A stretch of DNA of 64,000 nt, taken from the human T2T-CHM13v2.0 reference genome, Homo sapiens. Position 1 is the stretch's first letter. Each line of letters begins with the position of its first letter. Under the pieces are notes generated by a model. That model made no database searches and was not told where the DNA came from. It saw only the letters and a program-made list of their open reading frames with translations. The stretch lies in NCBI RefSeq assembly GCF_009914755.1, contig NC_060930.1; one strand, written 5' to 3'. Made by a program: the position numbers and the translations under genes. Shown piece by piece: positions 16,965-60,379 of this stretch.

Positions 16965-17856
<892 letters not shown>

Positions 17857-18899
17857 GCAGATAAGTTGTGTGTGTGTGTGTGCATGTATACGTGTGTGTG
17901 TGTCCGTCTGTGTAGGGAAATACCGTGGAAAGTTACTATTTGTTATAGCCATTTTATCATATATTTTATGAGATTTTATCTTTTCAAGTCAACTTTGCAT
18001 GTGCTTTGTGTTGAAAGACCTGAGTTTGAACATTCATACCATATTTGGAATATGGGAATGTAACGATACCTAATTTAAGCAGTTGTGAGAAGCAAATGGA
18101 ATAATGTATCTGAATCCATTTAATAAACTGTTCAACATTGTAAACATGCTGTTAGTAGTATCATAACTGTGTGAAGAGGCAGAAAACACTTTGGACTGGG
18201 GGATGGAAATCTTGGCCAGGGTTCAGTATTCACTTGACTTCCCGGCCATAACATCGAATGAATGGCCAGGACTCTCTTTGAGTAAATGAGCTTCTGAGAG
18301 GCTCCTAAAGAGGCGACCCCCATCCCTCACAGCTGAGAAGAGTGTGATCATCGTTTAAGGTTAAGGTCCAGGTTGGAAGACCTCCCCAGATTTAAACCTT
18401 GCTACAAAGTATTCTTTCATTTACTTTGAACCCTTCCTTCATTTACATCCCTTTAGGAACCAGGCCCTGTAGTGCTCAAGGAGGGTGGGAGAGTGAAACG
18501 AAAAGGAGTGAGATGCTGCTTCTGTTCTCGAGGACTTCACAGTCAACTTGCGGTAAGTGCTGCAGGGAGATGGCTGTAGTGGCTTTGGGAGTGTGCACAC
18601 TTTTCCAACAGAAAGTACCAGGAACCCTGCCTGGGGAAGGCTTCCTGGAGGAGGTGAGGTGGAGCTGGTCCACGAAAATTGAGTGGGATTTCCAAGACAT
18701 CAGTCTTTCGCGGGAAAAGAGAAATTAGGGCATGGTTTTAATTTAGTAAATATTTATTAATCAAGTACCCCATTCTAGGGTCCGTGCTAAGTGTCTGGGG
18801 TTGGTAGAGTCAGGAAGTATAAAATCAACTTAAGACATTTGGGAAAGATCTCCCTTTGTAGTAAGGAAGTTGAATCTGTACACAATGAAAGGAAACAAG

Positions 18900-19460
18900 G
18901 TAAAAGGCGCGAAGTCCATGACCATGACGAGGGCTGTGAGAACTGTAAATAGGGATTTGGGCAGTCCCGGCTGATTCTGAATAAAAGTCCGGAGGGGCGT
19001 TACTTTCGGGTCTCGGCCTGTGTGTCCCCAGCCCTTTGTTGTCCCCTCCGCAGGAAGGTGAAGGCTGTTTATGTAATCGGCGGCGCCTCGCGGGCGACTG
19101 GGGGAACTGGATGGGGGAGCCTGGCCAGGGCTGACTGAGCGCCCCTGGAATCCGTGCTCCGGGCGTTGGCTCACTCCCGCCCCGACACCTGGGCCCGCCC
19201 TCCCGCTGCGCAGCCACGCGACGGGCAGCAGCGTGGGCTGGCGGGCGACTCCCCACGCCTCCTGCAACACCGCCCTCTCCCTACCGGAGCGAGGAGGCAG
19301 GAAAAGCCTAGAGACGCCTGGTCCCATCCGCCTACCCAGTCCCCAGCCGGCCTGAAGGGAGGAAGAGGAAGGAACCCATAATCATCCCAAACTGGCGCAA
19401 ATGGTGGGTTTTACTGTCCAGAGGTCATTTCGTCTCTGCGTTTCCAACCTCCTCGCCCTT
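18900..19460. promoter_or_regulatory. CpG island
   Basis: Dense CpGs and GC boxes (CCCGCCC) in non-repeat sequence. Confidence 0.75.
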
Positions 19461-20151
19461 TTACTTTTTTTGGGCTCACTCAGGAAACTGGAGCAGTCCT
19501 TCTCTGGGTTTAACTTCAGTCCCTCACATGGCAACACTAGGAATGATCAAGACTTTTGTTGCGGGTAGTGGTGATGTGGGTTTGAGAGGAGGATGCATCT
19601 GGTCGTGGGATTAATTTTGGTTTCTGAGTATTATGAAGAACTAGAAAAGTTTTGCGTATGTCGGTTTTCAGGATGGGGTTCAGATGGGTCAAAGCCCTGT
19701 GCAGGTCCACGGGGGCTGCAGGAGGTAAAATGGAGGAGGAGACAGGCGGACAAGCTGGGGTCAGTGGTCCACTCCCCTGTGTCTGTCTTAACCGAGATGC
19801 AGCTGGATGCTTGCACGTGGCAGCTTTTTCAACCACCTGTTGATAGACGTTCGTTTCCAGTCTTATCCTGTTACCAACTGTGCTGCAATGAACAGCCTTG
19901 TGTATAGCCTTTTAGTGTATTTGAGCCTTTCTTTTCGACCCAGGCATATTGTAAGGAGAGAGGAACTGAGATAGAAGGAATATTTAAAGCAGGGTCAGAG
20001 AAATCAGGACTGGATCAGGAGGAAGCCCGAAGGGTGTAACCTTCCCATAGGGCTGCTGGAAGCCTAGCTTCAACCCTTCCAGCTGCAGCACATCCCAAAC
20101 TGGGGCGAGAAGCGAGTGAGGAGGAGATGCAGAGGAAGGCAAAGAACAACT

Positions 20152-20672
20152 CTAGCGACCCAGGGTGATCCGGGTGCCGGAAAACAGAAGCTGGAAAAAG
20201 GAGATCTGCCCCGGAAAGGAGGCATGGAAAGTGTAGATGTGGGTCCTCGAGGTGGCGTCGTAGAAGACTACCTCTCCGCCCTAGTAATCCACGCGGACGC
20301 CCACTTTGTTCGGACAGACCGGGAGATCCTCGCGGGAACCGCTCTCGATGAGCGCCTGGCACTGGGAGCCGCTGCTGTGCAGCTCCACGAAGCCGGTCAA
20401 GGGCTCCACCTCCAGGAAGCCCCGCCTGGGAACCAGCTCCAAGGCCAAGCCCAGCACGCAGGCCCCGCCCCCGGGCCCTTGGAGCTCCGCCTCCCAGGCG
20501 CCGCGGCCGGAGCAAAGGCCCAGCGAGCCCAGCACTCAGCGGAACCTGTAGAAGCGTCGGGGGTTGCCCCGCTTCTGCGAACCGCCCTGGGATGCGAGGT
20601 TCAGCGTCACTATCTCATCCTGGGAAAGGATGAGATCCGGGTGGGCCGAGGCTGCGTCCAGTGTCACAGGGG
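20152..20672 (-). pseudogene. Relic PRY-SPRY (B30.2) exon, the former terminal exon of TRIM31
   Basis: One frame: APVTLDAASAHPDLILSQDE..NPRRFYRFR*VLGSLGLCSGRGAWEAE..CVLGLA..KVGVRVDY*GGEVVFYDATSRTHIYTFHASFPGQISFF..RITLGR*. Contains the B30.2 motifs TLD-TAHP-L-LS, RF--CVLG, WEVE-like, and GV-LDYE-G-V-FY. Confidence 0.92.
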
Positions 20673-21188
20673 CCGTGTGAAGATGAGGAGAAAGAGGTGG
20701 CCAACCCCGGGTCAAGTTGTCCAAACCCCCTACCTTCCTCTGATACCCCCGTCCCACCACCCGCCCCGCTGGATGCCGCCAGAGAGGCTTTCTCTTCCCA
20801 GTCACAGCCTTTGTGGTCCCCAGAGAAGTCTTAGGCCCGGCCCCGCCTCCTCCTCCTCAAAGTTAATCCCTAAATTTCACAATGTGTTGTTCTGTGGGCG
20901 CAGAGAGAAGTTCTTCATTGGTGGTGGTGGTGAGATCATTTCAACACCCGAAGATGAGACCATCTCTTCCTTGTCCATTTCCCGTGGCCCCTAATTCCCA
21001 TGTCTAAGACAAGAATTGAGTCTAGTATAAGAGGTGTCAAGGCTCAGACTTTCTGAGGGCCAGTAATTTTCTAAAGTGGAGTTCCTCAAACACAGGGATG
21101 AGTGAAAGTGTTGGAATACAAAAGGAGGAATAGTCATCCCCCGCCACACACACATACACTTTTACTAGGATTCCACGTTCAGTCGCAG

Positions 21189-21194
21189 TTTATT
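21189..21194 (-). terminator. TRIM31: Poly(A) signal AATAAA of TRIM31
   Basis: TTTATT on +, ~615 nt past the stop codon, with GT-rich sequence further downstream on - (21145-21160). Confidence 0.8.
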
Positions 21195-21516
21195 AAAGTT
21201 AGAAGTGTCTCCATCCACCCCCTACAGAGGCTTGCGTGGTGGTTCCAGTCTGCTAAATATTTCAGAATGGGGACCTCATTCTATCTACTGATTTATCAAA
21301 TCTCATTAATTAATTTCCCTTGCTGATATGAGGGGTTGGGAGAGAAGGGGGACGTGGGAATGTAAGGAAGAGCGAGAGTGGTCGGGCTCATGGGGTTTGA
21401 TGGACTGTGACCCAGGCTGGCGTTGCTCGTCTCTGGATTTCACTCCTGGCTGAACTGGTGCCTTCGGTAAACAGCTGCTTAAAGAGTGCGGGGACTGCTG
21501 CAGGGACTTCCTTTTT

Positions 21517-21530
21517 CCACTAGGCGGCAC
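21517..21530 (+). promoter_or_regulatory. Candidate CTCF site with upstream TGCAG motif
   Basis: CCACTAGGCGGCAC core; TGCAG at 21499-21503, 13 nt upstream of the core. Confidence 0.6.
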
Positions 21531-21809
21531 CACAGCCAAAGTGATAAGAAGTCAAGCGTGGGGCGGGTGGCTGGAGATTGTCTCTTCCCCTCCTTTTGCT
21601 CAAGAACTCGTCCATTCCTTCTCCAACTCTCTTCACCACCACCCCCGCCCCCATCTCCACTCTCAGTAGCCCGAGCCCTCCCATTCTCCACTCCTTCGAC
21701 CCAATTCCACTAAGTCAAGAACCGTGGTCGGTCTCAGCCACTCACTCAGCGCCACTCTATGCTCCGAAGTCCGTGGAGCACCACCGCTCCCCGTGTTCTC
21801 TGAGCTGGC

Positions 21810-22063
21810 TTAGCTTGAAGGAACCTTACAAAACCAAGCCCGGATCGCTGTCAGCCACTCACTCAGTGCCGCATGGAGCTCCTCGGACAGCGCAACGTCA
21901 AATGTCTTCGTATCCTGAGAGCTCGCTCCTTGACCAGAAATCTCATCATAAGAGGCCAGGAGACATACTGGAAAAGTGACTTTCCCAGCAGACGAGGCCC
22001 GAAACAGGGAGTGGGATGGGGCTGAAGAGTGGTGATTTGGTGGCCCCGATGTAGTTCTGCCGC
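21810..22063 (-). CDS. TRIM31: TRIM31 exon 9 coding part (residues 342-425)
   Basis: Acceptor ...TCCCGCAAAG|GCGGCAGA, phase 1; encodes GGRTTSGPPNHH...AWFCKVPSS then TAA at 21812-21810. Confidence 0.93.
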
Positions 22064-22375
22064 CTTTGCGGGAGAAGGAAAGGAGAAAAGAGGTCAGCGG
22101 GAGCACCTCGGCAGCAATCCTCCATTGCCAGACAGCACAGCTGAGCTCTACATACAGCAGGAGGGATGGAGGTGAAACTCAAGAAAGTACACCTGAACAA
22201 GTCGGAGCGCCCTCTGTTTCCTGGCAGAGGTGTAATTTGGGGAGGAACTGAGGAAATGGAATAAATGAATTCATTCATTTATTCATTTATTCCATTTAGT
22301 GGAATTGGGTGGATACAGCATTTTGACCACCTGTAGACTTAGAGGTCCCTTAGTATTCAGAGACAGGACTCTTAC

Positions 22376-22441
22376 CTGCAGAAGATGACCCGGGCTCTGA
22401 GGTTTTGTTCATTTTATGATTATTTTTCTGTAACAAGCCCC
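22376..22441 (-). CDS. TRIM31: TRIM31 exon 8 (66 nt)
   Basis: TTTTAG|GGGGC...GCAG|GTAAG; encodes WGLLQKNNHKMNKTSEPGSSSA; phase 1/1. Confidence 0.93.
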
Positions 22442-23441
22442 CTAAAAATTGGGGAGAGAAAACCTATTTGGTCTTGATAACCAGAAGCTGCAAATTAAAA
22501 ACAAAAACAAGCACCCTGCCATCATCAATCAGAACAGTCAATGGTTCTCAGTGGGACCCATTCCCCACCCAGGGGGAAGTGTGGAAACCTTTCAGGTTGT
22601 CTCAGTGACAACAAGAGTGTGGTTCTCTACTGGCTTATAGGGCTTTCTGGGGCCTGGGATACTAAGCATTTAACAGGGCAAAAGTCATGGAGCATAACAA
22701 AGATGGCCTTTCTAAACACCGGTAGCTCCTTTTGTGGAGAAATGCTGGTGGAATAGGATCCCTAAATCCTGCTCTCTGGCTTTGGAATGCATTCTGTAGT
22801 TTCTGGCTTTGGAGAAAGGAGTTCTAATTCTCTCTCTTTCACTTAATGATCATATGACCTGGGTAACTTACCTCCCCTCCCGGAAGCTACATGGACCTCA
22901 CTGTAAGTTGCAGATAATAACACCTATCTTGGAGGATAGTTGTGGGGTTTTGAAATATTAGATGCGCACATAGTGGTCCTTTAAGAAATGGTACTTCTAC
23001 TGTTATTATCTTAGGTGGCAGAACCATATCTAATGACTTTAGCACAGGCTGTTATTACAGTGGGTCTCCATCCCCTGAGCTGTACTGACCTCACACCCAG
23101 AGGAGTTTGCCTCGAAACCTGGTGCCCTGTAGGGGCAGCAAATACTACAGAGGTGGAGCTGCCTCCTTCTTGTCCCACTTTTTCCTCCCTGTCTCTAGGA
23201 GTGAAGAAATACATTTGCAATTTTCTATTACTTCTGAATACTTCAAAGTTTGGGATTAGTGACTGTTTTGTGAGTTACCTGAGTTTAAAATAATAAAACA
23301 ACCATATGCCTGTTCTCTCAATTGGCTGAGGAATCGGCATTCACTTATATCTGGCCTTCATGTAATCATAGAGACACAATTCTTCCCCTTTTCTCACTTT
23401 CCCCAAATGGCAGAAGCAACCAACCATCATTTCTCACTTAC

Positions 23442-23516
23442 AGCTCTTCATGTCATTTTTATTCATGCTTTTGAAGAATCTGTTTTCATCTTTTTTCCTA
23501 TCAGCCTGGAGTTGGT
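23442..23516 (-). CDS. TRIM31: TRIM31 exon 7 (75 nt)
   Basis: CCCCAG|ACCAA...AGCT|GTAAGT; encodes DQLQADRKKDENRFFKSMNKNDMKS. Confidence 0.93.
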
Positions 23517-23715
23517 CTGGGGAATAAAGAATGGGATGAAATGGTGAGAGTCCAGAGGGGTTGAGCAAAGAACTCACTATCACACAGCAAGGCACTAATT
23601 TGAAATGCCTGGGAGAAGTAGAAGCTGCATTTGACTCTCATATTCTTATTGGACCAGGAAGGTATGCAACCCTTGAGAGATGCCCTTTCTGCTTTCCTGT
23701 GGTGACTGCCTAGCC

Positions 23716-24042
23716 CAGCACTGTCCAGTATGAATGATGAATGTAATCTGAGTCACGAATGTGAGCCACTTATATATTTTTAAATTTTCTAGTAGTCACC
23801 TTTAAAAAGTAGAAAGAAACTAGTAAAATTAACTTTAATTATATATTTTATTTAACTCAATATTCTCAAAATGTTATTTCAACATGTATTATAAAAATTA
23901 TTGCTATCTTTTACAGTCTCTTTTTACACTCAATCTTGTGAAATTAATGATTCTTCACATATAGCATGTTTAAATTTGGACTAGCTACATTTCAAGTGCC
24001 TGTCAGCACATGTGGCTAGCAGCTACTAAATTGGACAGTGCA
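23716..24042 (+). mobile_element. MER33-like hAT-Charlie MITE
   Basis: TIRs CAGCACTGTCCA ... TTGGACAGTGCAG. Confidence 0.8.
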
Positions 24043-25077
24043 GAGCTAGCCCCTTTCTCACTGCCTGACAAAGGTAGGTGCTCAGGACAAAGAGTGCCTT
24101 GAGGCTTCACCCTTTAGCTTCAGAAGGCCTACTGTAGGGCTAACCACCCAGGAGCCAGGTGGGGTAAGGGGGGGCCCCACTCTCCTAAAGCCTGGATGGC
24201 AGTCCTGCCCTCTTTCCCATGAAAGAGGGCTTGAGAGGGGGAACGAAGACAGAGCTCCTGCAAGGGGAGGCCGAGTGCCTTCATCTCCCAGTTCACCCCT
24301 GCCAGAAGAGACTCCTTTTGCAGGTAGAGGATGAGCCCAGAAGTTGGGGACAATGGCCCATTCCTGGCCTAGATTTCCTGTAGGGGTGCTGGACTGAGTG
24401 GAGAACTATAGGGTGGAGCCCCTAGATGGGGAGCTACTTCTGGCCCCAGCACCCTTCCCCCAGTGTCTTGCAGCCCCAAGACAGCACAAGACAGCCTGGG
24501 GCTAGGTAGTGGGACAAGCGTGGGCAGCTTCCCTGAGAGCCACCAGCCCAGTCATGGGGACTGCTCAGGGGAGACGCGGGGGCCCTCTTAGGAGGGGTCT
24601 GCAAACCTAGAGCATAGGAAACACTGCCTGGGAGCACTTCACCTACAAGGGCCTTTAGCAGCTTCAGGGCCCAGCCACACCCTTCTCCACGTACGTGTTC
24701 CAGACCCAGTCACCCCGAGCAGGGAGAACCAACCCTCATAATAAGAACTGTGGAGATTGGACCTGTGGTATAAGTAGACTCCCTACCACCTCCTGTATTT
24801 CCTAGGCTTTAATAGGGCCAGGTGGCCATTGTGCCTTCTTCTTTGGGGTAAAAATAAAATAAAAATAAGAGAAAAAAAAAAGAAGGAAATAGGGCCAGGT
24901 GGGAGTTGGGGGACTGTGTGTGTGTGAGTTTGTGTATGTGAAAGAGGGAAAGAAAAGGGGGATACAGAGTAGAGCACACCAGTCTCCCCAACTCCAAACC
25001 TGATGAAGTGGAAAGGGCTGGGCTCCTTTATTGAAATTCCAAACTAGAACCAAGCTATTCTTGACCTGAAGAGCCTA

Positions 25078-25486
<409 letters not shown>

Positions 25487-26327
25487 TCAGACAACAAAAT
25501 TAAGAATAAAACAAAACATGCTTTCCTGTTTATGTCTGCCGAGTGGAGATTCCCGGCTGAATGGGTGGAGATCTTGGGGCATTGCCCTGGTCCTCCTTTT
25601 CCGTAGTCCCAAGGGGAAGTGTTTGTGTATGGGGGGCTGGGGGTTGGGGTGGGGGAGGTGGGTGTGGAACTCCAGGTGATAATTTCAGAAGATTCCATCT
25701 AGCTGTCTTTATGCCCACCTTAGACCAACACAGTCTTCACATTAAGGGGAGTCCTTACAAATACTAACCCTTCTTCCTAGTTGCAAACACAGAAAGGTTT
25801 ATGAAAAATATCTGGCCGAACATCTAAAACCCAAGTCATCCACTACTGTTCTGCTGATTTCTGTTTCCCTGTAAGGCTGGAAGAGGTTTCTCCCCAGAAT
25901 GTCACTGATTTTGAATTTATTTTCTCTTCTTCTGTAGGCAGGAGGAGACACCAGTGTGCACCAGAGAAGGAGAAGTCAGAGATGACAGTCCCTGCCTGAG
26001 GCCATCTCTGGTCCACCAGACAACTCATCACCAACTTCCCAACAGCCACTGCTCTAGGCCAGGTGTCCACATGGGGAATAGGTCCAGGCCCTCTATGGCT
26101 CTCGCAGGAGTCAGGGAGGCAGATAAATAACATATCACGAAGACAGAATATAAGAAATGCCTGGGAGGAGGCATACTGATGCGTGGAAAGTACTCAGCCA
26201 GAAGCCTGGCACTAGAAGGGCCCAGGGATTGTTGGCATGTATGAGTCACAGTTCCATTTCAGTGGAGTGAGCAGGGAGAGAATCTCCTGGAAGTAGGTGA
26301 ATAGAGAAAATACAGCCTCTTCCTTAC

Positions 26328-26443
26328 CTTTGAATTTTTTCAGGCTCCCTGTGATGGAGTCGTGTCTTGATTTTGCTTCACTGAGTTTTTTCTCCAGTTC
26401 CAGAGGAACAGGGGTTGGGTTGAGAAACTGAAACTCTTCACTT
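26328..26443 (-). CDS. TRIM31: TRIM31 exon 6 (116 nt)
   Basis: CCTAG|AAGT...AAAG|GTAAG; encodes SEEFQFLNPTPVPLELEKKLSEAKSRHDSITGSLKKFK. Confidence 0.95.
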
Positions 26444-26478
26444 CTAGGAAGATGTGGTTGAGCTGGTTGGTGAGATCA

Positions 26479-26853
<375 letters not shown>

Positions 26854-27294
26854 GAAGACCTGGCGGTTAAGGGATAGTGAGCTGGGAGTCAGAAAGTCAG
26901 GGCTAGGGATATGGGGCAGGAGTGAGGTAGGGCATAGGGAGATATGGAAATGAAGATGGGAGATGGAGACAGAGAGGAGGGAAAAAAACAGGGTCAGGGA
27001 GACAGAGTAGGGGACCCAGGAGCTATTCAGTTGAGCAAGGGGGCATTCAGGAAATAGTAGAATCTGTGCTGAAGAAGGAGGAAGGCTGAGAAAACAGCTG
27101 GTTTCTTTAACAACCAACCACGTGCTAATATGGTTGGCATAGGCATTCCCCAGCTGCAGCCTAAATGTATGAATGCAGAGTTAGAGGTGGGTGGGTATTT
27201 CTGAGAGAGGAATGTTGACTGCATTTGGATATACGCTGAGAATTGTATGTGGATGAATCAGTAGGCAAAATACATTTGGGGTGGCCCATCATAC

Positions 27295-27317
27295 CTGCAC
27301 AAGACGACTTTGATATC
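27295..27317 (-). CDS. TRIM31: TRIM31 exon 5 (23 nt)
   Basis: TTCTAG|GATATCAAAGTCGTCTTGTGCAG|GTATG; the canonical 23-nt TRIM exon, DIKVVLCR. Confidence 0.95.
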
Positions 27318-27742
27318 CTAGAAGAGAAAGAGAAACAGCACAGCCTCAGCACTTGGCTGATTCCCAGGAGCCAAGGAGGAGATACAGAGCCTGCTGGGTG
27401 TGGGGCAGAGCAGGAGGAGTAAGAACCCCTCCAAGTCTCTCTTACCCCATCCTCCTCCCCTCTCCCCACCACGAAGGGCTTCTCCAAGAAGCACTGCTCT
27501 GCCAGTAAGCAGAAAAGTGTTTTGACCTCAAGAAGAACTGAGTGAAGAAGAGAAGAGTGAGATTTAGAAGATGAATTTGGCTCTGAGACTGAACAAGGGA
27601 GCCTGCTAGCCAGGGCAGGAGAAAGGCTAGAATGGCTTTGCATGATCTTTCTTAAAATAAATAAATAGGTTTTTGAACCTGTGGGAGAATAGATGACTTG
27701 AGGAGGAATCATCTCAGCTTATTTTAAGCACCAGCTAGACTT

Positions 27743-28600
27743 GCACTGTCCAATATGGTAGCCACCAACCACATGTGGCTACTGAACATTGGAAATTGTG
27801 GCTAGTGTGACAAAGAACTGAATTTTTAATTTCATTTTTACTAATTCAAATTTAAATTAAAAATAGAGGCCAGGCACGGTGGTTCACGCCTGTAATCCCA
27901 GCACTTTGGGAGGCTGAGGTGGGCAGATCACTTGAGGTCAGGAGTTCGAGACCATCCTGGCCAACATGGTAAAACCCCGTGTCTGCTAAGAATACAAAAA
28001 TTAGCTGGGCGTGGTGGTGGGGACCTGTAATCCCAGCTACTTGGGACTTGGGCCTAGGAGGCGGAAGTTGTAGTGCGCCAAAATCGCGCCACTGTACTCC
28101 AGCCTGGGCAACAGAGCAAGATTCCATCTCAAAAAATAAAATAAAATAAATAGAAGAAGGGTAAAGTACTTTTTCCATTAAACACAACTTTATTGATTTG
28201 GTAAGACTATATTTTACTTTAACAATTGACAATTTAGCATCTGAATTGAGATGTGCCAAAGTGAAAAATATACACACAATTTCAAAGACTCAGTGTAAAA
28301 AAAAAAAAAAAAAAACCACCAAAAACCCAGAATGTGAAATATCTCATTAATACTTTTAAAATATTCATTACAGGCTGAAAGGATAATATTTCAGATATAT
28401 TGAGTTAAAATATTTTATTAAAATTAATTTCACTTTTATCATTTTAATGTGACTAACTAGAAAAATTTGTAATTCCATATGTGGCTGAAACTACATTTCT
28501 AAATCACACATGTGGCCAGAATTATATTTATGAATTACATATGTGGCTCACATTTTCATTCTAATACATGCGGCTCACATATTGCTATTGGACAGCACTG
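27743..28600 (-). mobile_element. MER33-like element interrupted by an Alu
   Basis: TIRs GCACTGTCCAAT ... ATTGGACAGCACTG. Confidence 0.75.
27868..28152 (+). mobile_element. Alu with internal deletion (TRIM31 intron 4)
   Basis: Right arm lacks the GAGGCTGAGGCAGGAGAATC segment. Confidence 0.93.
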
Positions 28601-28715
28601 GGCTAGAGGTAGGATGGTTGGGGCAATCTCAGGTATTCTGCCAGTGGTCCATGCTCTGACCTGAGACTAGGGATGGGCTGCTACCTCTCTGCAATTCTGC
28701 CCCCAAGGGACTCAC

Positions 28716-28946
28716 CTCCAGCAGCTGCCTGGGTGGCATGTTCTGCTTGGTCTTCAGGGAATCAACGAGCTTCTTGAGATCGTTCAACTGTGGCTCAGTG
28801 GAGGCAACATAGTGTTTCCCCGCTTCCGTTCCCTCATGACCCAGCCAGTAAATCCGTGATAGCAGGAAATTCTTCTCCTCCTCTAGGACTTGATGCAGGA
28901 GTTCAAATTCTGTGAGGATCCTTTGCTTCTCATGTTCTACCTGGTC
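28716..28946 (-). CDS. TRIM31: TRIM31 exon 4 (231 nt, coiled coil)
   Basis: TTAG|GACCAG...GAG|GTGAG; encodes DQVEHEKQRILTEFELLHQVLEEEK...PRQLLE; phase 0/0. Confidence 0.96.
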
Positions 28947-29297
28947 CTAAGAAACAGGGACAGGCAGAGGGTGAGAGGATGGCCTCGAAGGTCCTTCTAG
29001 CCCACTTTATTCAGCCATTAATTTTATTAAGTTTGTGTGGAATTCCCAACCAGAGCAATGTGCCAGGGCAGACCTGGAAGAAAGGAAAGGAGAGGAGAAC
29101 AAACTTCTAAAAGCACCTACTACGTGCTCAGCTTTAAGCGAAATTATTAATTTATGGTTTACCACTTGCCTTCAAGGAACTGTCTAATACAATTCCAGAA
29201 GGCTTTTCAGTTTATAATCTTTCATATAGATTTTATTCCTTTCACGCACACAGGAAAATAGGTAAGTGGGGTCACAATGTCTTCATTTTCCTTCTGT

Positions 29298-29600
29298 CTT
29301 TTTTTTTTTTTTTTTTGAGACAGTCTCTCACTCTGTCACTCAGGCTGGAGTGCAGTGCACGATCACGGCTCACTGCAGCCTCATCCTCCCAGGCTCAAAC
29401 AATACTTTCACCTCCCAGCCTCTCTAGTAGCTGGGACTACAGGCGTGTGCTACCACGCCCGGCTAGTTTTCTTTCTTTTTTTTTTTAATTAAGAGGAGAG
29501 TCTCGCTATGTTGCCCAGGCTGGTCTCAAACTCCTGGGCTCAAGCGATCCTCAGCCTCCCAGAGTGCTGTGATTACTGGCGTGAGCCACCGCGCCCGGCC
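29298..29600 (-). mobile_element. AluJ (TRIM31 intron 3)
   Basis: TSD AATGTCTTCATTTTC at 29276-29290 and 29601-29615. Confidence 0.95.
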
Positions 29601-29914
29601 AATGTCTTCATTTTCTAATTGGGGAATCCGTTGAGGGCGCAGCTCGGCCTTAAAAACCTGTACTTGCGATTCTAAGACCAGCGCGGGTTTTCCGTGCCCC
29701 ACCTTGTCTGCCGGTGGAGACTGAGCAGTCAGCCCGCTGTAATAGCGAGGCCGACGCGGGAGGTGATGCCGCCTGGCCGGTCAGGTGCTGAGGCGCCGAG
29801 GAGAGGACATGGCTCACTGGATCTTTTTCTGAGGGGTCAGTGTAATAGGGGATTCCAGGAGCTTTGGCAGAGATGTTTCTGCTTCCAGAGATCGTGGGAT
29901 GGAGTTTTTCTTAC

Positions 29915-30010
29915 CGTGAAGACATCGACCCTGTGTACACCTTGTGCCTTCACTTGTACTGTCTCCTTCTCCTTTTGCTGCAAGACTTGGATCTGCTCTT
30001 GAATCTGCCC
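29915..30010 (-). CDS. TRIM31: TRIM31 exon 3 (96 nt)
   Basis: CCGCAG|GGGCAG...ACG|GTAAG; encodes GQIQEQIQVLQQKEKETVQVKAQGVHRVDVFT. Confidence 0.96.
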
Positions 30011-30655
30011 CTGCGGAAAGAGGGCCGTTTGGACAGGCTGTGCCTGGAGATTTCTGGCCTCATAAAATCCTCCTGGTCTCTTAGGAGAGCTGGTGACACT
30101 CTCCAGGTGAGTCCTTGTGTAATTATTAAGGACTCGCCTTTCTCAAGCTGGCGGGGAAAGGGGTTGCTGAGAAGGGAGAAATCTGGAGCCTAAGTGACCT
30201 AAATGACCAGAACATAGTTATTTATGACTAACTAGGACTATGGATGGTGCTTTGGAATTATCAAAGAACTACAAACTTCCCTTCATCTGTCCTACCAACA
30301 ACTTTAAGAGAGTTGTTTTGTTTTTGCCATTTGAAAGGTGAGGTACCTGAGGCTCAGAGAGGTAAAGTGATTCCTTGCAGGTTGTACAGTAAACTCACAA
30401 GACTGGGCTTGAGCCCAAACCTTCTGAGTCAAATTTTCACATCCTTTCCATTCTCCATTGCACCTTGATTTAGAGAGTCAGCAGTTCCCCAGACTCAGCT
30501 CTTTGAACCCACTGTGCCTGACTGCGAGCTGCCCACTCAAGCCCAAGGGGTGGGGGCAATGGGGTGCAAACCCTCAGTGGGAAGGTAGCAGTTTCCAGGG
30601 CCTCACTGAACTCCTGGGCTGATGGGGGAACAGGGAAGAAACCTCAAATGCCTAC

Positions 30656-31072
30656 CTGATAATTCTGGGCAGCTTCTTCGATCAAGCTGACATTATGGGA
30701 TTTGTGGTCCTTGGATTCACGACACACAAAACAGAGGAACTTCCCATCATCCTCGCAGAAATAGTGGAACATCTCCTGGTGCCTCGGGCATGTAGCCTCT
30801 TTCCTTTTGGACTGCACCTCAGAGGCTTGTAGAGCTTGGATTTTCTCCACCAGATTCCGCAACAGCGAGTTGAACCTGATTGCGTTCTTCCTTACGGAAG
30901 TTTTGCAGAGGGGACATTTGAAAAATCCACATGATGTTTCCCCAATCTGAGTGATGCATTTGAGGCAGAAATTGTGCCCACAGTCGATGGTGACAGGTTT
31001 CTGCAGAATGTCCAGGCAGATGGGGCAGATCACTTCCTCTTGCAGTTTGTTCACAAACTGCCCACTGGCCAT
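30656..31072 (-). CDS. TRIM31: TRIM31 exon 2 coding part: RING + B-box2 (E3 ubiquitin ligase)
   Basis: MASGQFVNKLQEEVICPICLD..CGHNFCLKC..CPLC; B-box CPRH..C..C..C..H..H; donor CAG|GTAGG. The exon starts at 31155 (CCTAG|AAAC). Confidence 0.98.
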
Positions 31073-31330
31073 GACAGAACAACAGGGCTGTTTCAAGACT
31101 GTAGGAAGCTGTGCCAAGTCTGTAGGAGCCCCGGAGTCCACTGTGGATACTGTTTCTAGGAAGGGAGAAGGGAGTCAGAGAAAGTGGAGGTCAGAGATTC
31201 TGCCAATTAGTTAGAAGAGCAGAGAGAGAGGAAAAGAAGAGGGAGAAAAAAATAAAGAAATGATAGAAAAGCGTAAAATTTAGGATCTAGAAAATATTAT
31301 AAAGAGAGGAAAACAGATGGGCAGTCCTAC

Positions 31331-31358
31331 CTTGCTACCTCTTGAGAACAAATGGATA
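31331..31358 (-). other. TRIM31: TRIM31 non-coding exon 1 (TSS approximate)
   Basis: Donor GCAAG|GTAGG at 31331|30; TATA-like TTTATAA at 31387-31381. Confidence 0.65.
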
Positions 31359-31379
31359 CTTTGAATGTGTAATAGGCTG

Positions 31380-31715
31380 CTTATAAAGTGAAATAAGTTG
31401 TCCTGAACTTTGGACTAAAGGTATGTTTGTATGGTGGTTGACTAAGATCAGAATGACCGGGGCACCAAACACCACTTATGGGGGATTTCCCAATCAGCTC
31501 TGAGTAGGGAGTGGAGGGGTGGGTGGTGATGCCTACTGAAAGGTCACAGCCAGTTCACTGCAATGCTTTGGGCATCTTGTATGCAAAGTTCAAGCCTTGG
31601 TAGAGCATCTGGAAAGTAGGGGAAGGGCAATTCTCTACCTCAGGTGCTTTGGCTCCTCACAGAATTTTGTGAAAATGTGGAGGTTATCATCACCTACCTT
31701 GGGGAATTTCCAGTC
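31380..31715 (-). promoter_or_regulatory. TRIM31 proximal promoter (TATA, IRF-like, HNF4 DR1, two NF-kB sites, DR5 RARE)
   Basis: AAGTGAAA 31386-31393; AGTCCAAAGTTCA (-) 31404-31416; GGGGATTTCC 31481-31490; AGGTCA-cagcc-AGTTCA 31541-31557; GGGAATTTCC 31702-31711. Confidence 0.75.
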
Positions 31716-32248
31716 ACAGGGTCAACCAACCACTCCCTAGCTCAGTAGGATAGGCAAGGAACTTCCTTTCTAAAGAGTTGTTCTTTGTTTTTGCACTTTG
31801 CTCTTGCCCCTGGTGATCTTCTGTCTCCCCACAACACCTGTAGTAGTCTGTCCTCTGTTGATTTTTTCTCTGTATGTCTCCAGTATGCTGGTGTCTCCGT
31901 GCCCATTCTTTGCTTTGCCAATTCTGTCTATATGTTCTTCTTCTTCCTTCTTGGTGCTTCTCTGATCCCTGACTTGCCTTCTATGGCTTTTGTTATGACT
32001 AGGAATATATCAACCAGTGTTACATACATTCCCTTCTGTACATTCATGTCCTAACCTTCCCTCCTTGCCTCTTGTCTTAAGGAAAAGGGTGCTTCCTCCC
32101 TACCCCTTCTCTTGGTATAGCTTCCACCCTCACCTCCTCACTCTCCATTATCAGCCGTCTGTCCCCAGCAAGAAGTACACCATTAATTTTTGTCTGATCT
32201 TAATCTTAGGTCAAACAGGGCTTGTGGATGACTATTATAATAATAGCC

Positions 32249-54409: not shown

Positions 54410-54464
54410 TCTCCAGGTCTAGAGCCAGAGAAGATGATCTGAAATTGTAGCAGGAGAAATTGAG
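54410..54464 (+). other. TRIM40: TRIM40 non-coding exon 1 (TSS approximate)
   Basis: Starts ~28 nt after TATAA; donor GAG|GTAGG at 54464|5; next acceptor CTTCCTCTAG|G at 55007|8. Confidence 0.55.
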
Positions 54465-55311
54465 GTAGGATACTAAGAAAGCTTTTCAGGAGTGGGGCTA
54501 GGCAAGAGGTGCAGCATGAGGGAATAAGAGTGAATCCTCAGTATCTAAGGGAGGTGGCAGGTGGCGGGGGACTTCTTTCTTTGGGTCATCTTTGGTGGTG
54601 ATTTGACAGGAAGGAACAAAGTGGCTTCAAACATTATACAAGTCTCTAGTCTGTTCTGTGTCCTGTTTTCTTTCTCATTCTTTCAGTGTGGAATCTATAT
54701 GACCCTGGGAGGGATGTTGGTTGGAAGAATGACCAGCTGATGGAGATGCTGCTGTAATTATTGGTGGTAATAATGGGCAGCAGTGAGCCACCCGGTGTGA
54801 CAGTGTAGGAGAAAACAGTCCAAACTCCTGCCAAACTCTCTCTACTGATGGCAAATCAGAGGAGACTCAAATTGTAAGTTTATAGTGGTCTGGCTTTTGG
54901 CCATGACAATGACACCTTGCCCTTTTAATTTGGGGCCCGTGCAAATATTCACTGAAAGCTGTCAAGAGGAAAACAGAATTGGTTATTGAATCACTTGCTT
55001 CCTCTAGGTGTATGAAAAATAATTTCAAGTTTAACAAACACAAGGAAACCGCAGGGTCCATGTCAAAGCTGATGAGCTATTTCTGAAACTCGTGAAGAAT
55101 TGTGGTTTGTGTGGTCTATGTCACGGCACCCTTGAGGGAGAGTGGGCAATTGCCTGAACTTGGAGGCTGTGTCCTGTCCCCAGGCTGCTCCAGGGCTGCC
55201 TCCTTCCGACTGGGCCTTCTTATCTGGGACTGTTGAGGGCAACAGGCCTTCCGAAGACCAGTGAAGAAGGAGGCCCTGCAAACAGGAGGCTGACAGGGTA
55301 GGAACGAGGCC

Positions 55312-55656
55312 ATGATCCCTTTGCAGAAGGACAACCAGGAGGAGGGTGTCTGCCCCATCTGCCAGGAGAGCCTGAAGGAGGCCGTGAGCACCAACTGCGG
55401 ACATCTCTTCTGTCGAGTGTGCCTGACACAGCATGTGGAGAAGGCCTCAGCCTCTGGGGTCTTCTGCTGCCCCCTCTGCCGGAAGCCCTGTTCTGAGGAG
55501 GTGCTAGGGACAGGCTATATCTGCCCCAACCACCAGAAGAGGGTGTGCAGGTTCTGTGAGGAGAGCAGACTTCTTCTATGTGTGGAATGCCTGGTGTCCC
55601 CTGAACACATGTCTCATCATGAACTGACCATTGAAAATGCCCTCAGCCACTACAAG
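55312..55656 (+). CDS. TRIM40: TRIM40 first coding exon: RING + B-box (115 aa); remaining exons lie beyond the window
   Basis: MIPLQKDNQEEGVCPICQESLKEAVSTNCGHLFCRVC..CPLC..CPNH..CVEC..H..H..ALSHYK, then donor AAG|GTAAG. Confidence 0.96.
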
Positions 55657-56342
55657 GTAAGCCTGGGTCACCGCAGCCAGGCCCTGCCTCCACCTCGCTG
55701 AGGTGCTGCATCCTACATGTTCATCATGCCTGGCACCTCAGAGTAGCTCAACAATGGACATCTCTCTTTGTTTCTTCTGCTTCATCCTGTTTTGGACCCT
55801 TGTCTTGCTTTTCTGTGTATATTTTGAGGCTGATGTTTCCATGCATTAATGTGAGTCTGTCTAAAAGAGGATATTGTCAGTGTGATGTTAGAGTCCCAGT
55901 CTGCTCATCTGTAGAATAGAGTAATTGGACTAACTAATGCAAAACCCTTTCAGGACTAAAACTGTGTGAACTCCTGGTTGATAGTACTAGAAACTTGGCT
56001 AGAAATGTAATCAGGTTTTATATACACTAGTAATTATCCTGCAAATATATTAAAACCTGAAAGTTACTACATAATTTTTTCTCTCTTTTTCTTCCTTCTG
56101 CATTTGTCTTATCTTTCCTTTTCCTTTCTTTGCTATGGCAATTATTTTATCTTATTCTGTTAAATTTTCTATCACAAAAGTTACATGCTGTAGGTAATAA
56201 ATTCAGAAAGCACTGAAAGGTATAAAGTCAAGACTAAAAATTTGTCTTCCTTTCTCCCTCCATTCATAGTCCTCAGAGGTAACCATTGTTTGATTTTTGT
56301 ACATCCTTCCAAAAAATGTGTGTGCTTATGAATGCACTCTTA

Positions 56343-56365
56343 CACACACACACACACACACACAC
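56343..56365. repeat. (CA)n microsatellite
   Basis: About 11 units. Confidence 0.95.
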
Positions 56366-57605
56366 CCTCAAAGGATTCTCTCTATATTTTTTTCTGTAAC
56401 TCATTTTTGTTATCTAAAAGTGTGGCTTGAACATTTTCTCATCAGCATGTATAGATCTTCTGAATTATTTTCAAGAACTGTGTGGTATTAAATTCTATGA
56501 ATGTACCATAAATTGGCAGACATTGGGTCATTTCCAAGCTATTGTTTTGTTTTAAGATTACACAGAACGTTCTAATGAATATCCTTCAACATATATATTG
56601 GAGGACCTAGAATATCCAAGATATATTTTGGTGAGAGCATAAGGTAGAAATCTAACTTTAGTTTTTCCAAGTTATAATCAATTTGTCCTATCACCATTTG
56701 TTGAATGATTCATATAGTTTCCCCATTGATTTGAATGCCAATGTCATAATATACCATATATGCATATTTTCTTGCATACTGCCTTGATTCTTTGTGCTGT
56801 TCTATTCTGTCTATGCTTGCCTATAAGCCAAGGTATTTTAGAGATTTTATCCTTACCATATATTTTAATGTCAGGTATTTTGATAGAATCCTCACAATAC
56901 TCTTATTTTTCAGAATTCGTGCAGATATTTGTATATCTTTATTTTGCCAATTAGCTTTGGAATTATTTTTATCAACCTTTCCCCTGACCCTAATCCAGTT
57001 AGTATTTGACTGGACAATTGACAATATTTTCACATGGCATCCTTCTATCCAATAGTGAAGGCTGAACTTCCAAAGCTGAGGTAGCTTTGAGATACTTGAC
57101 TTTTGGAGAACATGTTATGATACAGAATGAGAAAGTGGGGAGTCCAGATTAAAAGTGACTACAGAAAGGTAGAGAAATAATTGAAAAAGCCAGAGGCAAA
57201 GTTCTATTTGGTTCTAACATCATTCCCTCCAGGTGCAATGTCCACAGGAGAGTGGGGAGGGATTCCTCACCTGCCGATGAAGCAGCATAAGATGGAGAAA
57301 TTTATTTCCTCACTAAATGATTTTTTCAGGTCTGTCCTTTGTGTTAGATGTCATGCTAGGCATTGTAGAAAGTACAAAGATGATTCATAATTCTTGTTTC
57401 AAATCTGTCTTTAAATAATGACAAGAAAGCTAAAACAAATAAATAACGATGACACTTGTTCATTAAGTAAAAACTTAGTAAGTTCCTGCTGTGTGTGAGA
57501 AACTGCAGCATGTGCTAGGAATCAATGAAGACAGATGCCATTCCTTCTGCCAGGAGTTTGCAGTGTAGTAAGGGAGACACAAATAAGTAATCAAAGAACT
57601 GTAAC

Positions 57606-57876
57606 TTTTTTTTCTTTTTTTTTTTTTTTTTTTTTTGAGATGGAGTCTCATTCTGTCACCCAAGCTGGAGAGCAGTGGCATGATCTCGGCTCACTGCAAC
57701 CTCCGTCTCCCAGGTTCAAGCAATTCTTTGCCTCAGCCTCCCGAGTAGCTGGGATTACAGGCACCCACCACCAGGCCTAGCTAATTTTTGTATTTTTAGT
57801 AGAAACAGGGTTTCACCATCTTGGCCAGGCTGGTCTTGAACTCCTGACCTCATGATCCATCTGCGCTGGCCTCCCA
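57606..57876 (-). mobile_element. 5'-truncated Alu
   Basis: TSD AAAGAACTGTAACTTTTT at both flanks. Confidence 0.93.
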
Positions 57877-58149
57877 AAAGAACTGTAACTTTTTATTAGT
57901 TAGGAAGAAAATAAACAAGGGTCTGGGATGAACAGTAATGGGTGGCCCATGTCCATTTGGTCAGTGAGGGCCTCATAGAGGAAGTGACCTTGAAGCTGAG
58001 GGCTGGCAGAAGAGAAATCAACCTGCAAAGACAGGGGGTAGGGAGTGCATACAGATGCCCACACCTGAGAAGTCTTGTTATATTTGAAGAATTTATCATT
58101 AGAGTTTGAATCGACAGGACTTACTGAGAGATTAGAAGTGGGTTCTTTG

Positions 58150-59002
58150 TAAGAAAAAAACAACCCCATCAAAAAGTGGGCAAAGGATATGAACAGACGC
58201 TTCTCAAAAGAAGACATTTATGCAACCAACAGACATATGAAAAAATGCTCATCATCACTGGTCTTTAGAGAAATGCAAATCAAAACCACAATGAGATACC
58301 ATCTCTGCCAGTTAGAATGGCAATCATTAAAAAGTCAGTAAACAACAGATTCTGGAGACGAAGTGGAGAAATAGGAACGCTTTTACACTGTTGGTGGGAG
58401 TGTAAATTAGTTCAACCATTGTGGAAGACAGTGTGGTGATTCCTCAAGGATCTAAAACCAGAAATACCATTTGACCCAGCAATCCCATTACTGGGTATAT
58501 ACCCAAAGGATTATAAATCATTCTACTATAAAGACACATGCACACGTATGTTTATTGTGGCATGGTTCACAATAGCAAAGACTTGGAACCAACCCAAATG
58601 CCCATCAACGATAGACTGGATAAAGAAAATATGGCACATATACACCATGGAATACTATGCAGCCATAAAAACAGATGAGTTCACGTCCTTTACAGGGACG
58701 TGGATGAAGATGGAAACCATCATTCTCAGCAAACTAACACAAGATCAGAAAACCAAACACCACATGTTCTCACTCGTAAGTGAGAGTTGAACAATGAGAA
58801 CACGTGGACACAGGGAGGGGAATATCACACACCAGGGCCTGTGAGGGGATGGGGGGTAGGGGAGGGATAGCATTAGGAGAAATACCTAACGTGGATGACG
58901 GTTTGATGGGTGCAGCAAACCACCATGGCACGTGTATACCTATGTAACAAACCTGCATGTTCTGTCCATGTGCCCCAGAACTTAAAGTATATATATTTTA
59001 AA
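58150..59002 (+). mobile_element. 5'-truncated L1PA 3' end (older L1PA)
   Basis: ORF2 C-terminus and 3'UTR ending CCCAGAACTTAAAGTATA; TSD AAGTGGGTT at both flanks. Confidence 0.93.
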
Positions 59003-59277
59003 AAGTGGGTTGAAGGAAGGAGGAAGGTCAAAGATGACTTCATGAGTTTCTGGTTTGAGAAACTGAATAGATGATGTGAAAGATAATAACTTGGTAGAAC
59101 AGGTTTGAATGCAACACCAAGAGTTTCATTTAAGACAAGTTGAGTCCAAGTTGAGACACATCAAAATAGGATCTTACATACGCAGCTGGATCACAAATTT
59201 AGATCTCCAGAGTCTTATTCCTAGAACCTAGAACAAAGATCCATCCAGGCAAAGACAATATTTAAATCCAAGAAAAG

Positions 59278-59711
<434 letters not shown>

Positions 59712-60379
59712 TTAGATGTAGGCAGAGGAGGACCCAGCAAAGGAGACAGGATGAGTTGCCAGAAAGGCAGGAGAAAAACAAGGGGAATGGTGCCCCAGCT
59801 GCTAAGAGAGAAGGGTATTTTAAGAGATTATAATAGATTGCATTGAACAATGCTAACACTTCAGTAAGATGGTGGCAGAGGCATGAGAGCTGAGTTGGGA
59901 GGAGGCACACTTCTTCCATAGTAATAACAGGGAACAAGAGAAGGTGTCTGCAAGCCTACATAGTTTTGCAGTTTTGGAAATCCAGGTTTTGTTCTGGTTT
60001 TTATTTTCTCATAATATTTGAGGAAGGAACATCAGCAGTATGGGTGGGATCAGGATGGATGTGAAAGGTTTGAAAAGAAACAAGATGGTGTGATGCAGTG
60101 TGGGAGAGCGCTTACAAGAGAAACTATGTAGGGTTGGCAGACAGTATGTAGCACCAATTTGAGGTCTGAAATGTTTAACATGTTTCAGGAGGCTGCCTGA
60201 GGACAGACAGCAAACAAGAAGGTGATGGTACATTTTACCATGGATAAGGAGTTGTCTGAAAAGTAACACAAAGAGGGAGGGTAAGGGAGTTGAGTATATT
60301 TCTGAAGAAGTGATTATAATGGTGGACCTTATGTGTACTCATGGATATTGACAGCGTAATTTTGAAATTAAGGAGGGTT

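What the first reader, a model, noticed from the sequence alone, without database searches (positions are those of the whole stretch)
20152..20672. Complete, decommissioned PRY-SPRY (B30.2) exon stranded behind TRIM31
Seen: a single 521-nt minus-strand frame with no frameshift encodes a whole B30.2 domain (APVTLDAASAHPDLILS...RFYRFR*VLG...SGRGAWEAE...KVGVRVDY*GGEVVFYD...HIYTF...FF...ITLGR*). The only internal stops are TGA at 20538-20536, at the conserved Cys of CVLG, and TAG at 20283-20281, at the Glu of DYE. Each is one base from the expected codon. The ORF track splits it into unrecognised pieces. Established: the 96/231/23/116-nt exon series is typical of TRIM-B30.2 genes; human TRIM31 lacks B30.2, while (recalled) mouse Trim31 has it. 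Inference: this is TRIM31's ancestral substrate-recognition exon, and the repaired protein would be 514 aa. So few lesions suggest a fairly recent primate loss, so human and mouse TRIM31 may select targets differently. The missing domain is known at protein level; I cannot confirm whether this relic has been described.
Basis: partly seen in the sequence, partly recalled or inferred. Interest (0 to 1): 0.85.

Follow-up and report, generated by a model that had tools for sequence, protein, structure and literature searches.

The report
Dead B30.2 exon of human TRIM31
Just downstream of the human TRIM31 gene lies the decayed last exon that still encodes the target-binding B30.2 domain in most other mammals; it is a real relic, but the loss of this domain in human TRIM31 was already reported in 2008.

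Summary
Minus strand 20672-20152 is one frame of 173 codons, broken only by TGA (20538-20536) and TAG (20283-20281). Read through, it passes Pfam's cut-offs for PRY (32.2 bits) and SPRY (36.7 bits).

It is TRIM31's own former last exon:
- It is 50.6-65.1% identical, end to end, to the C-termini of the 57 closest TRIM31 orthologues, against 28-36% for 20 human paralogues.
- It joins the TRIM31 clade with 100/100 support.
- Horse TRIM31 finds it as its best match in the whole human genome.
- It lies 1190 nt downstream of the exon-8 donor, on the same strand and in the right phase.
- The predicted junction AL|TPVTLD matches the horse.

- The ancestral layout includes a 201-nt exon 8, giving 581 codons rather than 514 (orthologues 574-594 aa).
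- The loss is not recent. A siamang TRIM31 model still splices into this exon and stops at the same codon, and the relic has changed 7 of 33 columns invariant in orthologues.
- There are further lesions: two one-codon deletions, and GG where the acceptor AG should be.

Sardiello et al. 2008 already reported that human TRIM31 lost its SPRY domain. The result is ordinary, with some new detail.

The parts
20152..20672 (-). Relic of TRIM31's last (B30.2 / PRY-SPRY) exon: 521 nt, phase 1, including its own terminal TAG at 20154-20152
20518..20667 (-). PRY part (Pfam PF13765, 32.2 bits read through 1 TGA)
   Evidence: chr6:29966518-29966667; on the piece alone
20212..20499 (-). SPRY part (Pfam PF00622, 36.7 bits read through 1 TAG, model positions 3-99 of 121)
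   Evidence: chr6:29966212-29966499
20536..20538 (-). First internal stop, TGA, at the column where 28 of 28 non-muroid orthologues have Cys. The siamang isoform X2 protein ends exactly before this codon.
20281..20283 (-). Second internal stop, TAG, at the Glu column of the D[HY]E.GE motif
20614..20619 (-). Site of a one-codon deletion against all aligned orthologues (SQD-EI versus SQDLKT); shared with siamang
20200..20205 (-). Site of a second one-codon deletion (GQI-SFF versus GQIFPFF)
20673..20700 (-). Former 3' splice site. The pyrimidine tract is kept, but the last two intron bases (20674-20673) read GG, not AG.
   Evidence: That AG was ancestral is inferred from the siamang model's junction.
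20673..21862 (-). Former intron 8 (1190 nt). Its 5' part now supplies the last 17 codons, the stop and the 3'UTR of human TRIM31.
21863..22063 (-). Ancestral exon 8 (201 nt, phase 1-1), ending at the donor GA|GTGAGT. The human select mRNA reads through this donor.
21736..21755 (-). Second copy of the 20-nt donor motif (exon end 21746). It is used by human NR_134870.2, by chimpanzee X15/X17 and by siamang X2.
21810..21812 (-). Stop codon (TAA) of the human 425-aa TRIM31. Chimpanzee, bonobo and siamang proteins have Gln here, and the two Pan proteins read on to 21666.
21189..21194 (-). AATAAA signal inside the former intron, 18 nt before the annotated TRIM31 3' end (21171)

Best explanation
The stretch is the dead last exon of TRIM31.

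In the placental ancestor, TRIM31 was an RBCC-linker-B30.2 protein of about 580 aa. Exon 8 (201 nt) was spliced across a 1.2-kb intron to this exon.

In the primate lineage leading to humans, the exon acquired a stop at the conserved Cys codon, 45 codons in. Because this was the last exon, the mRNA would escape nonsense-mediated decay and give a protein with only a PRY stub (inferred). That state is still annotated in a gibbon.

Transcripts then came to end inside the former intron. The exon-8 donor is read through, a stop is met, and an AATAAA at 21194-21189 sets the 3' end.

The abandoned exon went on decaying: a second stop, two codon-sized deletions, loss of conserved residues such as the SPRY Trp, and GG in place of the acceptor AG in this human reference.

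It now does nothing for the protein. Human TRIM31 (425 aa) has no B30.2 and must find its substrates through the coiled coil and linker.

Shown here: the identity of the relic, the lesions, the exon phases, the junction, and the sharing of the stop position with siamang. Inferred: the order of events, the acceptor change, and the age.
For: Similarity. The relic, read with X at the two stops inside a script, was searched against 241 sequences. The first 95 ranked proteins all came from the TRIM31 searches. The first 57 are 50.6-65.1% identical over 166-180 aligned columns, and most of those alignments end at the subject's C-terminus. The best of the 20 human paralogue B30.2 exons is TRIM39 at 87 bits; the 20 range from 28 to 36% identity.

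Tree (careful search). The relic and 34 TRIM31 orthologues sit on one side of a branch with 100/100 support, against the 20 human paralogues.

Reciprocal search. Horse TRIM31 against the whole human genome gives the relic as best hit (218 bits, 65%, 1 TGA and 1 TAG), then TRIM31 exon 1 (202 bits). The next-best B30.2 is TRIM15 (107 bits, 40%).

No close copy elsewhere. The 84-aa piece finds only itself and TRIM15 (36%) in the human genome.

Gene structure. The relic is on the same strand, 1190 nt beyond the exon-8 donor. Exons 6, 7 and 8 are 75, 66 and 201 nt, so all are phase 1. The split codon gives Thr, hence TPVTLD as in tree shrew and horse. The 581-codon model aligns end to end with orthologues of 574-594 aa.

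Siamang. Isoform X2 (P0127, 477 aa) ends ...HRVAL|TPVTLD...FYRFR. Its last 44 residues match the relic at 40 of 44 and stop at the human TGA position.

Decay. The relic breaks 7 of 33 invariant columns, against 0-3 for each of 28 orthologues. It breaks 13 of 63 columns that are at least 90% conserved (21%), against an orthologue median of 3.8% and a maximum of 11.6%.

Annotation. No RefSeq transcript covers the relic.

Literature. Sardiello 2008 reports that human TRIM31 lost its SPRY domain.
Against: - No non-human primate DNA could be read here. The sharing of the TGA with siamang rests on where a predicted (Gnomon) protein ends. That the acceptor was once AG is inferred.
- Within the TRIM31 clade the relic's position is unresolved. 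No starred set holds it, and its nearest rows are horse and rhinoceros, not tree shrew or Glires.
- CpG content is high (observed/expected 0.75, GC 66%) and sharply confined to the exon. This matches living B30.2 exons such as TRIM15 (0.71). It is unexpected for a methylated sequence that has drifted for tens of millions of years.
- Both indels are multiples of three, and there is no frameshift in 519 nt.
- Sardiello 2008 describes the human lesion as 'distal frameshifts', which is not what the exon shows.
Confidence: 0.9

Rival explanations
1. The relic is the remnant of a different gene: another MHC-linked TRIM or BTN gene, or a lost tandem TRIM31-like duplicate whose 5' exons were deleted. 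On this view it was never the last exon of today's TRIM31.
For: Several mammals have more than one TRIM31-like gene on one contig (pika, lemming, voles, beaver). The chr6 region is full of TRIM and BTN B30.2 exons.
Against: Human paralogue exons are only 28-36% identical, against 50.6-65.1% for the 57 closest TRIM31 orthologues, and the clade has 100/100 support. The phase, the strand, the 1.2-kb distance and the conserved AL|TPVTLD junction fit exon 8 of this same gene. The siamang model splices the TRIM31 exons to it. No second set of RBCC exons matched between the relic and TRIM31, though the tblastn filter covered only window 19000-32000.
Confidence: 0.03
2. The exon is still in use in humans as an alternative 3' exon. 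It would give a TRIM31 isoform that ends in a 45-residue PRY stub, as in the siamang model.
For: Siamang isoform X2 has exactly this structure. The pyrimidine tract is kept. Both donors are intact and are used in human and chimpanzee models.
Against: The acceptor dinucleotide reads GG in this reference. None of the 8 RefSeq TRIM31 transcripts reaches beyond 21171. Human and siamang differ at 4 of 44 residues in the stub, which is what neutral drift would give (the rate is recalled).
Confidence: 0.04
3. The dead exon has been taken over as a regulatory element (an unmethylated CpG island or enhancer). That would explain why its base composition is preserved.
For: GC is 66% and CpG observed/expected is 0.75, dropping to 0.2-0.45 in both flanks. 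RefSeq lists H3K4me1 hESC enhancer elements at 20689-21189 and 18693-19202.
Against: Living B30.2 exons of TRIM15, TRIM7, RNF39 and TRIM62 have the same composition, so it may simply be inherited. The annotated enhancer abuts the relic but does not cover it. No functional data were available here.
Confidence: 0.1
4. The frame is open by chance in GC-rich DNA, or the TGA is recoded (selenocysteine in place of Cys) and the domain is still made.
For: GC-rich DNA gives long open frames: a 292-aa ORF lies antisense to the relic. The TGA sits on a Cys column, the classic Sec/Cys pattern.
Against: E-values reach 1e-72 against orthologues. The antisense ORF and the other-frame ORF have no Pfam match. 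The second stop is TAG. An Rfam scan of 17500-22500 at E<=1 gave no SECIS, only two chance-level matches below their gathering scores. The invariant SPRY Trp and other invariant residues are lost.
Confidence: 0.01

Closest known systems
B30.2 (PRY-SPRY) exon of TRIM31 in other placental mammals (e.g. tree shrew P0145 587 aa, horse P0128 592 aa, cow P0132 574 aa, rabbit P0138 594 aa; muroid Trim31 about 505 aa)
   Same: Same position in the gene, same phase and the same junction (AL|TPVTLD, as in the horse). It has the same length bar two codons and ends at the same C-terminus. The 57 closest are 50.6-65.1% identical.
   Different: The human copy has two stops, two one-codon deletions, 7 of 33 invariant residues changed, GG at the acceptor, and is in no annotated transcript.
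Human class C-V TRIMs derived from C-IV genes by loss of the C-terminal domain (TRIM31, TRIM52, TRIM61, TRIM73, TRIM74: Marin 2012; TRIM15 in mouse and rat, TRIM31 in human: Sardiello 2008)
   Same: [quoted passage not shown] The papers name TRIM31 itself (passages only).
   Different: The papers give no coordinates and no relic exon. Sardiello calls the human lesion 'distal frameshifts' and says the cow has it too. Here the exon shows no frameshift, and the current cow protein has PRY and SPRY.
B30.2 exons of the neighbouring genes TRIM15 and TRIM10
   Same: Nearest human paralogues in the tree. They share the 96/231/23/116 exon series, and their last coding exon is 518 nt against 521 nt here. 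TRIM15 has similar GC and CpG content.
   Different: Only 34-35% identical. They are separated from the TRIM31 clade by a branch of about 0.9-1.1 changes per site.

Membership tests
B30.2 / PRY-SPRY domain (Pfam PF13765 + PF00622) | PRY profile match over the curated cut-off | tested here: met
   32.2 bits against 27.5 when read through the TGA. The open 45-aa piece alone scores 23.8 bits, E=3.5e-5, below the cut-off.
B30.2 / PRY-SPRY domain (Pfam PF13765 + PF00622) | SPRY profile match over the curated cut-off, directly after PRY | tested here: met
   36.7 bits against 26.3, model positions 3-99 of 121, read through the TAG. The 84-aa piece alone scores 15.8 bits.
B30.2 / PRY-SPRY domain (Pfam PF13765 + PF00622) | An open reading frame that can give a folded domain | tested here: not met
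   Two in-frame stops. The invariant Trp of GFW and 6 other invariant residues are changed. No fold was predicted, because the tools take no read-through protein.
TRIM31 orthologue group (last exon) | Closest to TRIM31 C-termini and not to other TRIM or BTN genes, in both directions | tested here: met
   95 proteins from the TRIM31 searches rank above the best of 20 human paralogue exons. The clade has 100/100 support. Horse TRIM31's best hit in the human genome is the relic.
TRIM31 orthologue group (last exon) | Position, strand and splice phase fit the upstream TRIM31 exons | tested here: met
   It lies 1190 nt beyond the exon-8 donor on the same strand. The phase is 1 with either donor. The junction AL|TPVTLD is as in the horse.
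TRIM31 orthologue group (last exon) | The exon is spliced to TRIM31 in some mammal | tested here: met
   By my reading, about 92 of the 111 listed non-primate proteins carry RBCC plus PRY and/or SPRY in one chain. Siamang X2 joins TRIM31 exons to the relic's first 45 codons. All of these are gene models; no transcripts were seen here.
TRIM31 orthologue group (last exon) | Used by the human gene today | tested here: not met
   None of the 8 RefSeq TRIM31 transcripts reaches it. The acceptor reads GG. Human RNA data were not available.

The most novel reading that the evidence does not exclude
The exon may not be simply rotting. It keeps a CpG-island-like composition cut exactly to its borders and an unshifted frame over 519 nt, with only codon-sized deletions. 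It is still spliced in a gibbon model, and it sits beside H3K4me1-marked DNA. Human TRIM31 has meanwhile gained a further, human-only stop 49 codons before the Pan stop. Together these would fit a stepwise, possibly selected, trimming of the C-terminus of an immune E3 ligase in apes. In that case the old exon would survive as a regulatory element or as a rarely used 3' exon.
Probability: 0.1. Interest if true: 0.45.

Novelty: already known. Interest (0 to 1): 0.25.

Why it matters
TRIM31 is studied as a regulator of NLRP3 and MAVS, largely in knock-out mice (reviewed in PMC5620554, passages). Mouse Trim31 carries a B30.2 domain that the human protein lacks. The relic shows that this is a true lineage-specific loss and not an annotation gap, and that it is older than the split of humans and gibbons. 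Mouse results that depend on the B30.2 domain therefore need not carry over to humans.

The relic also corrects two details in print. The human exon has nonsense changes and codon-sized deletions, not frameshifts. The cow gene is intact in the current annotation.

Beyond that, it is an ordinary example of domain loss by 3' truncation.

Tried and rejected
Chance ORF: rejected (E 1e-72; the antisense 292-aa ORF and the other-frame 166-aa ORF have no Pfam match).

Origin from another TRIM or BTN gene: rejected.

Selenocysteine recoding of the TGA: rejected (no SECIS; the second stop is TAG).

A 117-nt tandem duplication around the exon-8 donor: the two 20-nt donor motifs differ at one base, but the flanks are only 69 of 123 columns identical, and the repeat finder did not report this pair. 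Left as a weak possibility.

Dating the lesions on a primate tree: not possible, because no non-human primate DNA is within reach. The Old World monkey proteins found (231-372 aa, UniProt models) lack PRY/SPRY, but they look partial and show nothing about the relic. No strepsirrhine or tarsier TRIM31 was listed, and the only New World monkey entry is a 99-aa fragment. Thousands of candidates of untold source were left out by the tool, so these blanks mean little.

A rough age from decay: 7 of 33 invariant codons changed gives about 0.11 substitutions per site (my arithmetic's non-synonymous fraction; Poisson range about 0.04-0.25). At that distance 1.4 stops are expected. Set against recalled primate neutral distances, this points to tens of millions of years. 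The retained CpG content argues for less, so I give only the gibbon bound firmly.

Literature: 6 searches found no paper that describes the relic exon itself. The library lacks most subscription journals (for example a 2003 Tissue Antigens paper on the MHC TRIM cluster, which I only recall). Supplements are closed, so Sardiello's additional files and Malfavon-Borja's table S1 may hold relevant alignments or taxa that I could not see.

Full report
THE SEQUENCE. On the minus strand the codons from 20673 to 20152 form one frame of 173 codons plus a terminal TAG. There are two internal stops, TGA at 20538-20536 and TAG at 20283-20281. The ORF listing splits the frame into 89-aa and 84-aa ORFs among many overlapping GC-rich ORFs.

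The open pieces give weak Pfam matches on their own: PRY E=3.5e-5, SPRY E=0.016, and nothing for the 42-aa tail. Whole-genome profile scans that read through stops put the locus over both curated cut-offs. PRY scores 32.2 bits against 27.5, one of 81 matches. SPRY scores 36.7 bits against 26.3, one of 140 matches.

WHOSE EXON IS IT. A genome-wide protein search with the 84-aa piece finds only itself and the last exon of TRIM15 (36% identity, E 7e-5), so there is no close human copy.

Three protein searches, climbing by length, gave 221 proteins. One search listed the best 120 of 149 hits. By my reading of that table, about 92 of the 111 non-primate proteins carry PRY and/or SPRY on a TRIM31 chain. 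They include tree shrew, rabbit, rodents, ungulates, whales, moles, afrotherians and xenarthrans. None of the 9 listed primate proteins does, and none of the 12 primate proteins across all three searches.

The relic was read with X at its stops, inside a script, and searched against those 221 proteins plus 20 human B30.2 exons taken from the reference. It hits 95 proteins from the TRIM31 searches before the first human paralogue. The first 57 are 50.6-65.1% identical over 166-180 aligned columns, and most of those alignments end at the subject's C-terminus. Muroid Trim31 is 37-47% identical. Human TRIM39, TRIM10, TRIM15, MEFV and the rest are 28-36% identical.

In a maximum-likelihood tree of 55 rows, the relic and 34 orthologues sit on one side of a branch with 100/100 support, next to TRIM15 and TRIM10 (quick tree; careful tree, whose bootstrap had not fully settled). 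Horse TRIM31 searched against the whole human genome returns the relic as its best match (218 bits, 65%) and TRIM31 exon 1 as its second. TRIM15's B30.2 is far behind at 107 bits.

HOW IT FITTED THE GENE. RefSeq's TRIM31 coding exons are 417/96/231/23/116/75/66/254 nt. The 96/231/23/116 series is shared with TRIM10, 15, 26, 27 and 39, whose last coding exons are 518-683 nt.

Exons 6 and 7 and the first 201 nt of exon 8 are all multiples of three, so the phase stays at 1. Exon 8 has a donor GA|GTGAGT at 21863, which Gnomon models use. Joining 21863 to 20672 makes the split codon Thr and the junction ...LHAAL|TPVTLDAASAHP. Horse has ...LKVAL|TPVTLDAASAHP and tree shrew has ...LPAAP|TPVTLDVASAHP. 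The model has 581 codons and aligns end to end with orthologues of 574-594 aa.

It resembles short forms such as muroid Trim31 (about 505 aa) or a 490-aa tree-shrew model, but it is not the main layout.

The last 17 residues of human TRIM31, its stop and its 3'UTR come from reading through that donor into the old intron. An AATAAA at 21194-21189 precedes the annotated 3' end at 21171.

LESIONS. Against 34 orthologues, the TGA falls on the Cys of FRCVLG, which is invariant in 28 of 28 non-muroid rows. The TAG falls on the Glu of D[HY]E.GE. There are two one-codon deletions (SQD-EI and GQI-SFF) and no frameshift.

The relic changes 7 of 33 columns that are invariant in 28 non-muroid orthologues, including the SPRY Trp. 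Each orthologue, tested the same way against the others, changes 0-3. At columns at least 90% conserved the relic changes 13 of 63 (21%), against an orthologue median of 3.8% and a maximum of 11.6%. The two bases before 20672 read GG behind an intact pyrimidine tract.

AGE. Siamang TRIM31 isoform X2 (P0127, 477 aa, an NCBI model) ends ...HRVAL|TPVTLD...FYRFR. It uses the second donor copy (human 21746), enters the relic at the same point, carries the same first codon deletion, differs at 4 of 44 residues, and ends exactly before the human TGA position. The first stop and that deletion are therefore older than the human-gibbon split. In that model the acceptor still works, so the human GG probably came later (inference).

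Only 2.5-2.8% of single-base changes in this GC-rich exon make a stop. Two stops are thus unlikely for a young relic (P=0.02 at 0.015 substitutions per site, 0.06 at 0.03) and expected at about 0.1-0.15. That agrees with the 21% loss of conserved residues. 'Few lesions, so recent' is not supported.

Against an old age stands the CpG content: observed/expected 0.75 at 66% GC, falling to 0.2-0.45 in the flanks. This is the same as in living exons of TRIM15, TRIM7 and RNF39. I cannot explain it. I could not test Old or New World monkeys or lemurs.

THE LITERATURE. Sardiello et al. 2008 (PMC2533329; passages) list human TRIM31 as R-B2-CC-nd. [quoted passage not shown] Marin 2012 (PMC3503706; passages) places TRIM31 among the class-V proteins derived by domain loss.

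Malfavon-Borja et al. [quoted passage not shown] Song et al. 2016 (PMC5155141; one passage) map NLRP3 binding to the coiled coil and do not mention SPRY.

None of the passages I read describes the relic exon, and six searches found no paper that does. Supplements and most subscription journals were out of reach. The domain loss is known; what is added here is the anatomy of the relic, the junction, the gibbon evidence, and the correction of 'frameshifts' and of the cow's status.

VERDICT. This is a real and correctly identified pseudo-exon, an ordinary case of domain loss by 3' truncation whose substance is already in print.

Noticed in passing
Protein P0162 (Nannospalax galili TRIM31-like isoform X2, 535 aa); not in the window: This TRIM31-like model carries a cyclophilin domain (Pfam PF00160) in place of PRY/SPRY. 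A full cyclophilin-A-like sequence follows a few residues after the VTLDAA start of the B30.2 exon. It looks like a TRIM31-CypA fusion, comparable to the TRIM5-CypA fusions of monkeys. The rodent TrimCyp paper (PMC6677749) lists Nannospalax only in its assembly table, in the passages I read.
   Followed up: partly
window 21810-21812 (-): The stop codon of the human 425-aa TRIM31 is aligned with Gln in the chimpanzee, bonobo and siamang proteins. The Pan proteins read on for 48 more codons to 21666 (bonobo protein 474 aa). The human C-terminus therefore appears to be shortened by a human-lineage stop.
   Followed up: partly
window 21736-21755 and 21853-21872 (-): The 20-nt exon-8 donor motif occurs twice, 117 nt apart, with one mismatch. 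Both copies are used as donors in primate models. The flanks are only 56% identical, so an old tandem duplication is possible but not shown.
   Followed up: partly
window 20100-20700 and 18900-19400: There are two CpG-rich, GC-rich patches (CpG observed/expected 0.6-0.95), one coinciding with the relic exon and one about 1 kb beyond it. RefSeq marks H3K4me1 hESC enhancer elements at 20689-21189 and 18693-19202. CpG retention in a long-dead exon is unexplained.
   Followed up: partly
table (cow P0132, 574 aa): The current cow TRIM31 isoform X1 has PRY and SPRY, unlike the 'distal frameshifts in ... cow' reported in 2008. None of the 120 listed hits is from a carnivore, which fits the 2008 statement that the gene is absent in dog.
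   Followed up: no
window 20116-20994 (+): A 292-aa ORF runs antisense across the relic. It has no Pfam match and is most likely a by-product of GC-rich codon usage on the other strand.
   Followed up: yes
chr6:30,000,415-30,016,218 (TRIM40 to TRIM10; partly window 54415-64000): TRIM40 also lacks a B30.2 domain (258 aa). The genome-wide PRY scan shows no relic between TRIM40 and TRIM10 at E<=0.01.
   Followed up: no
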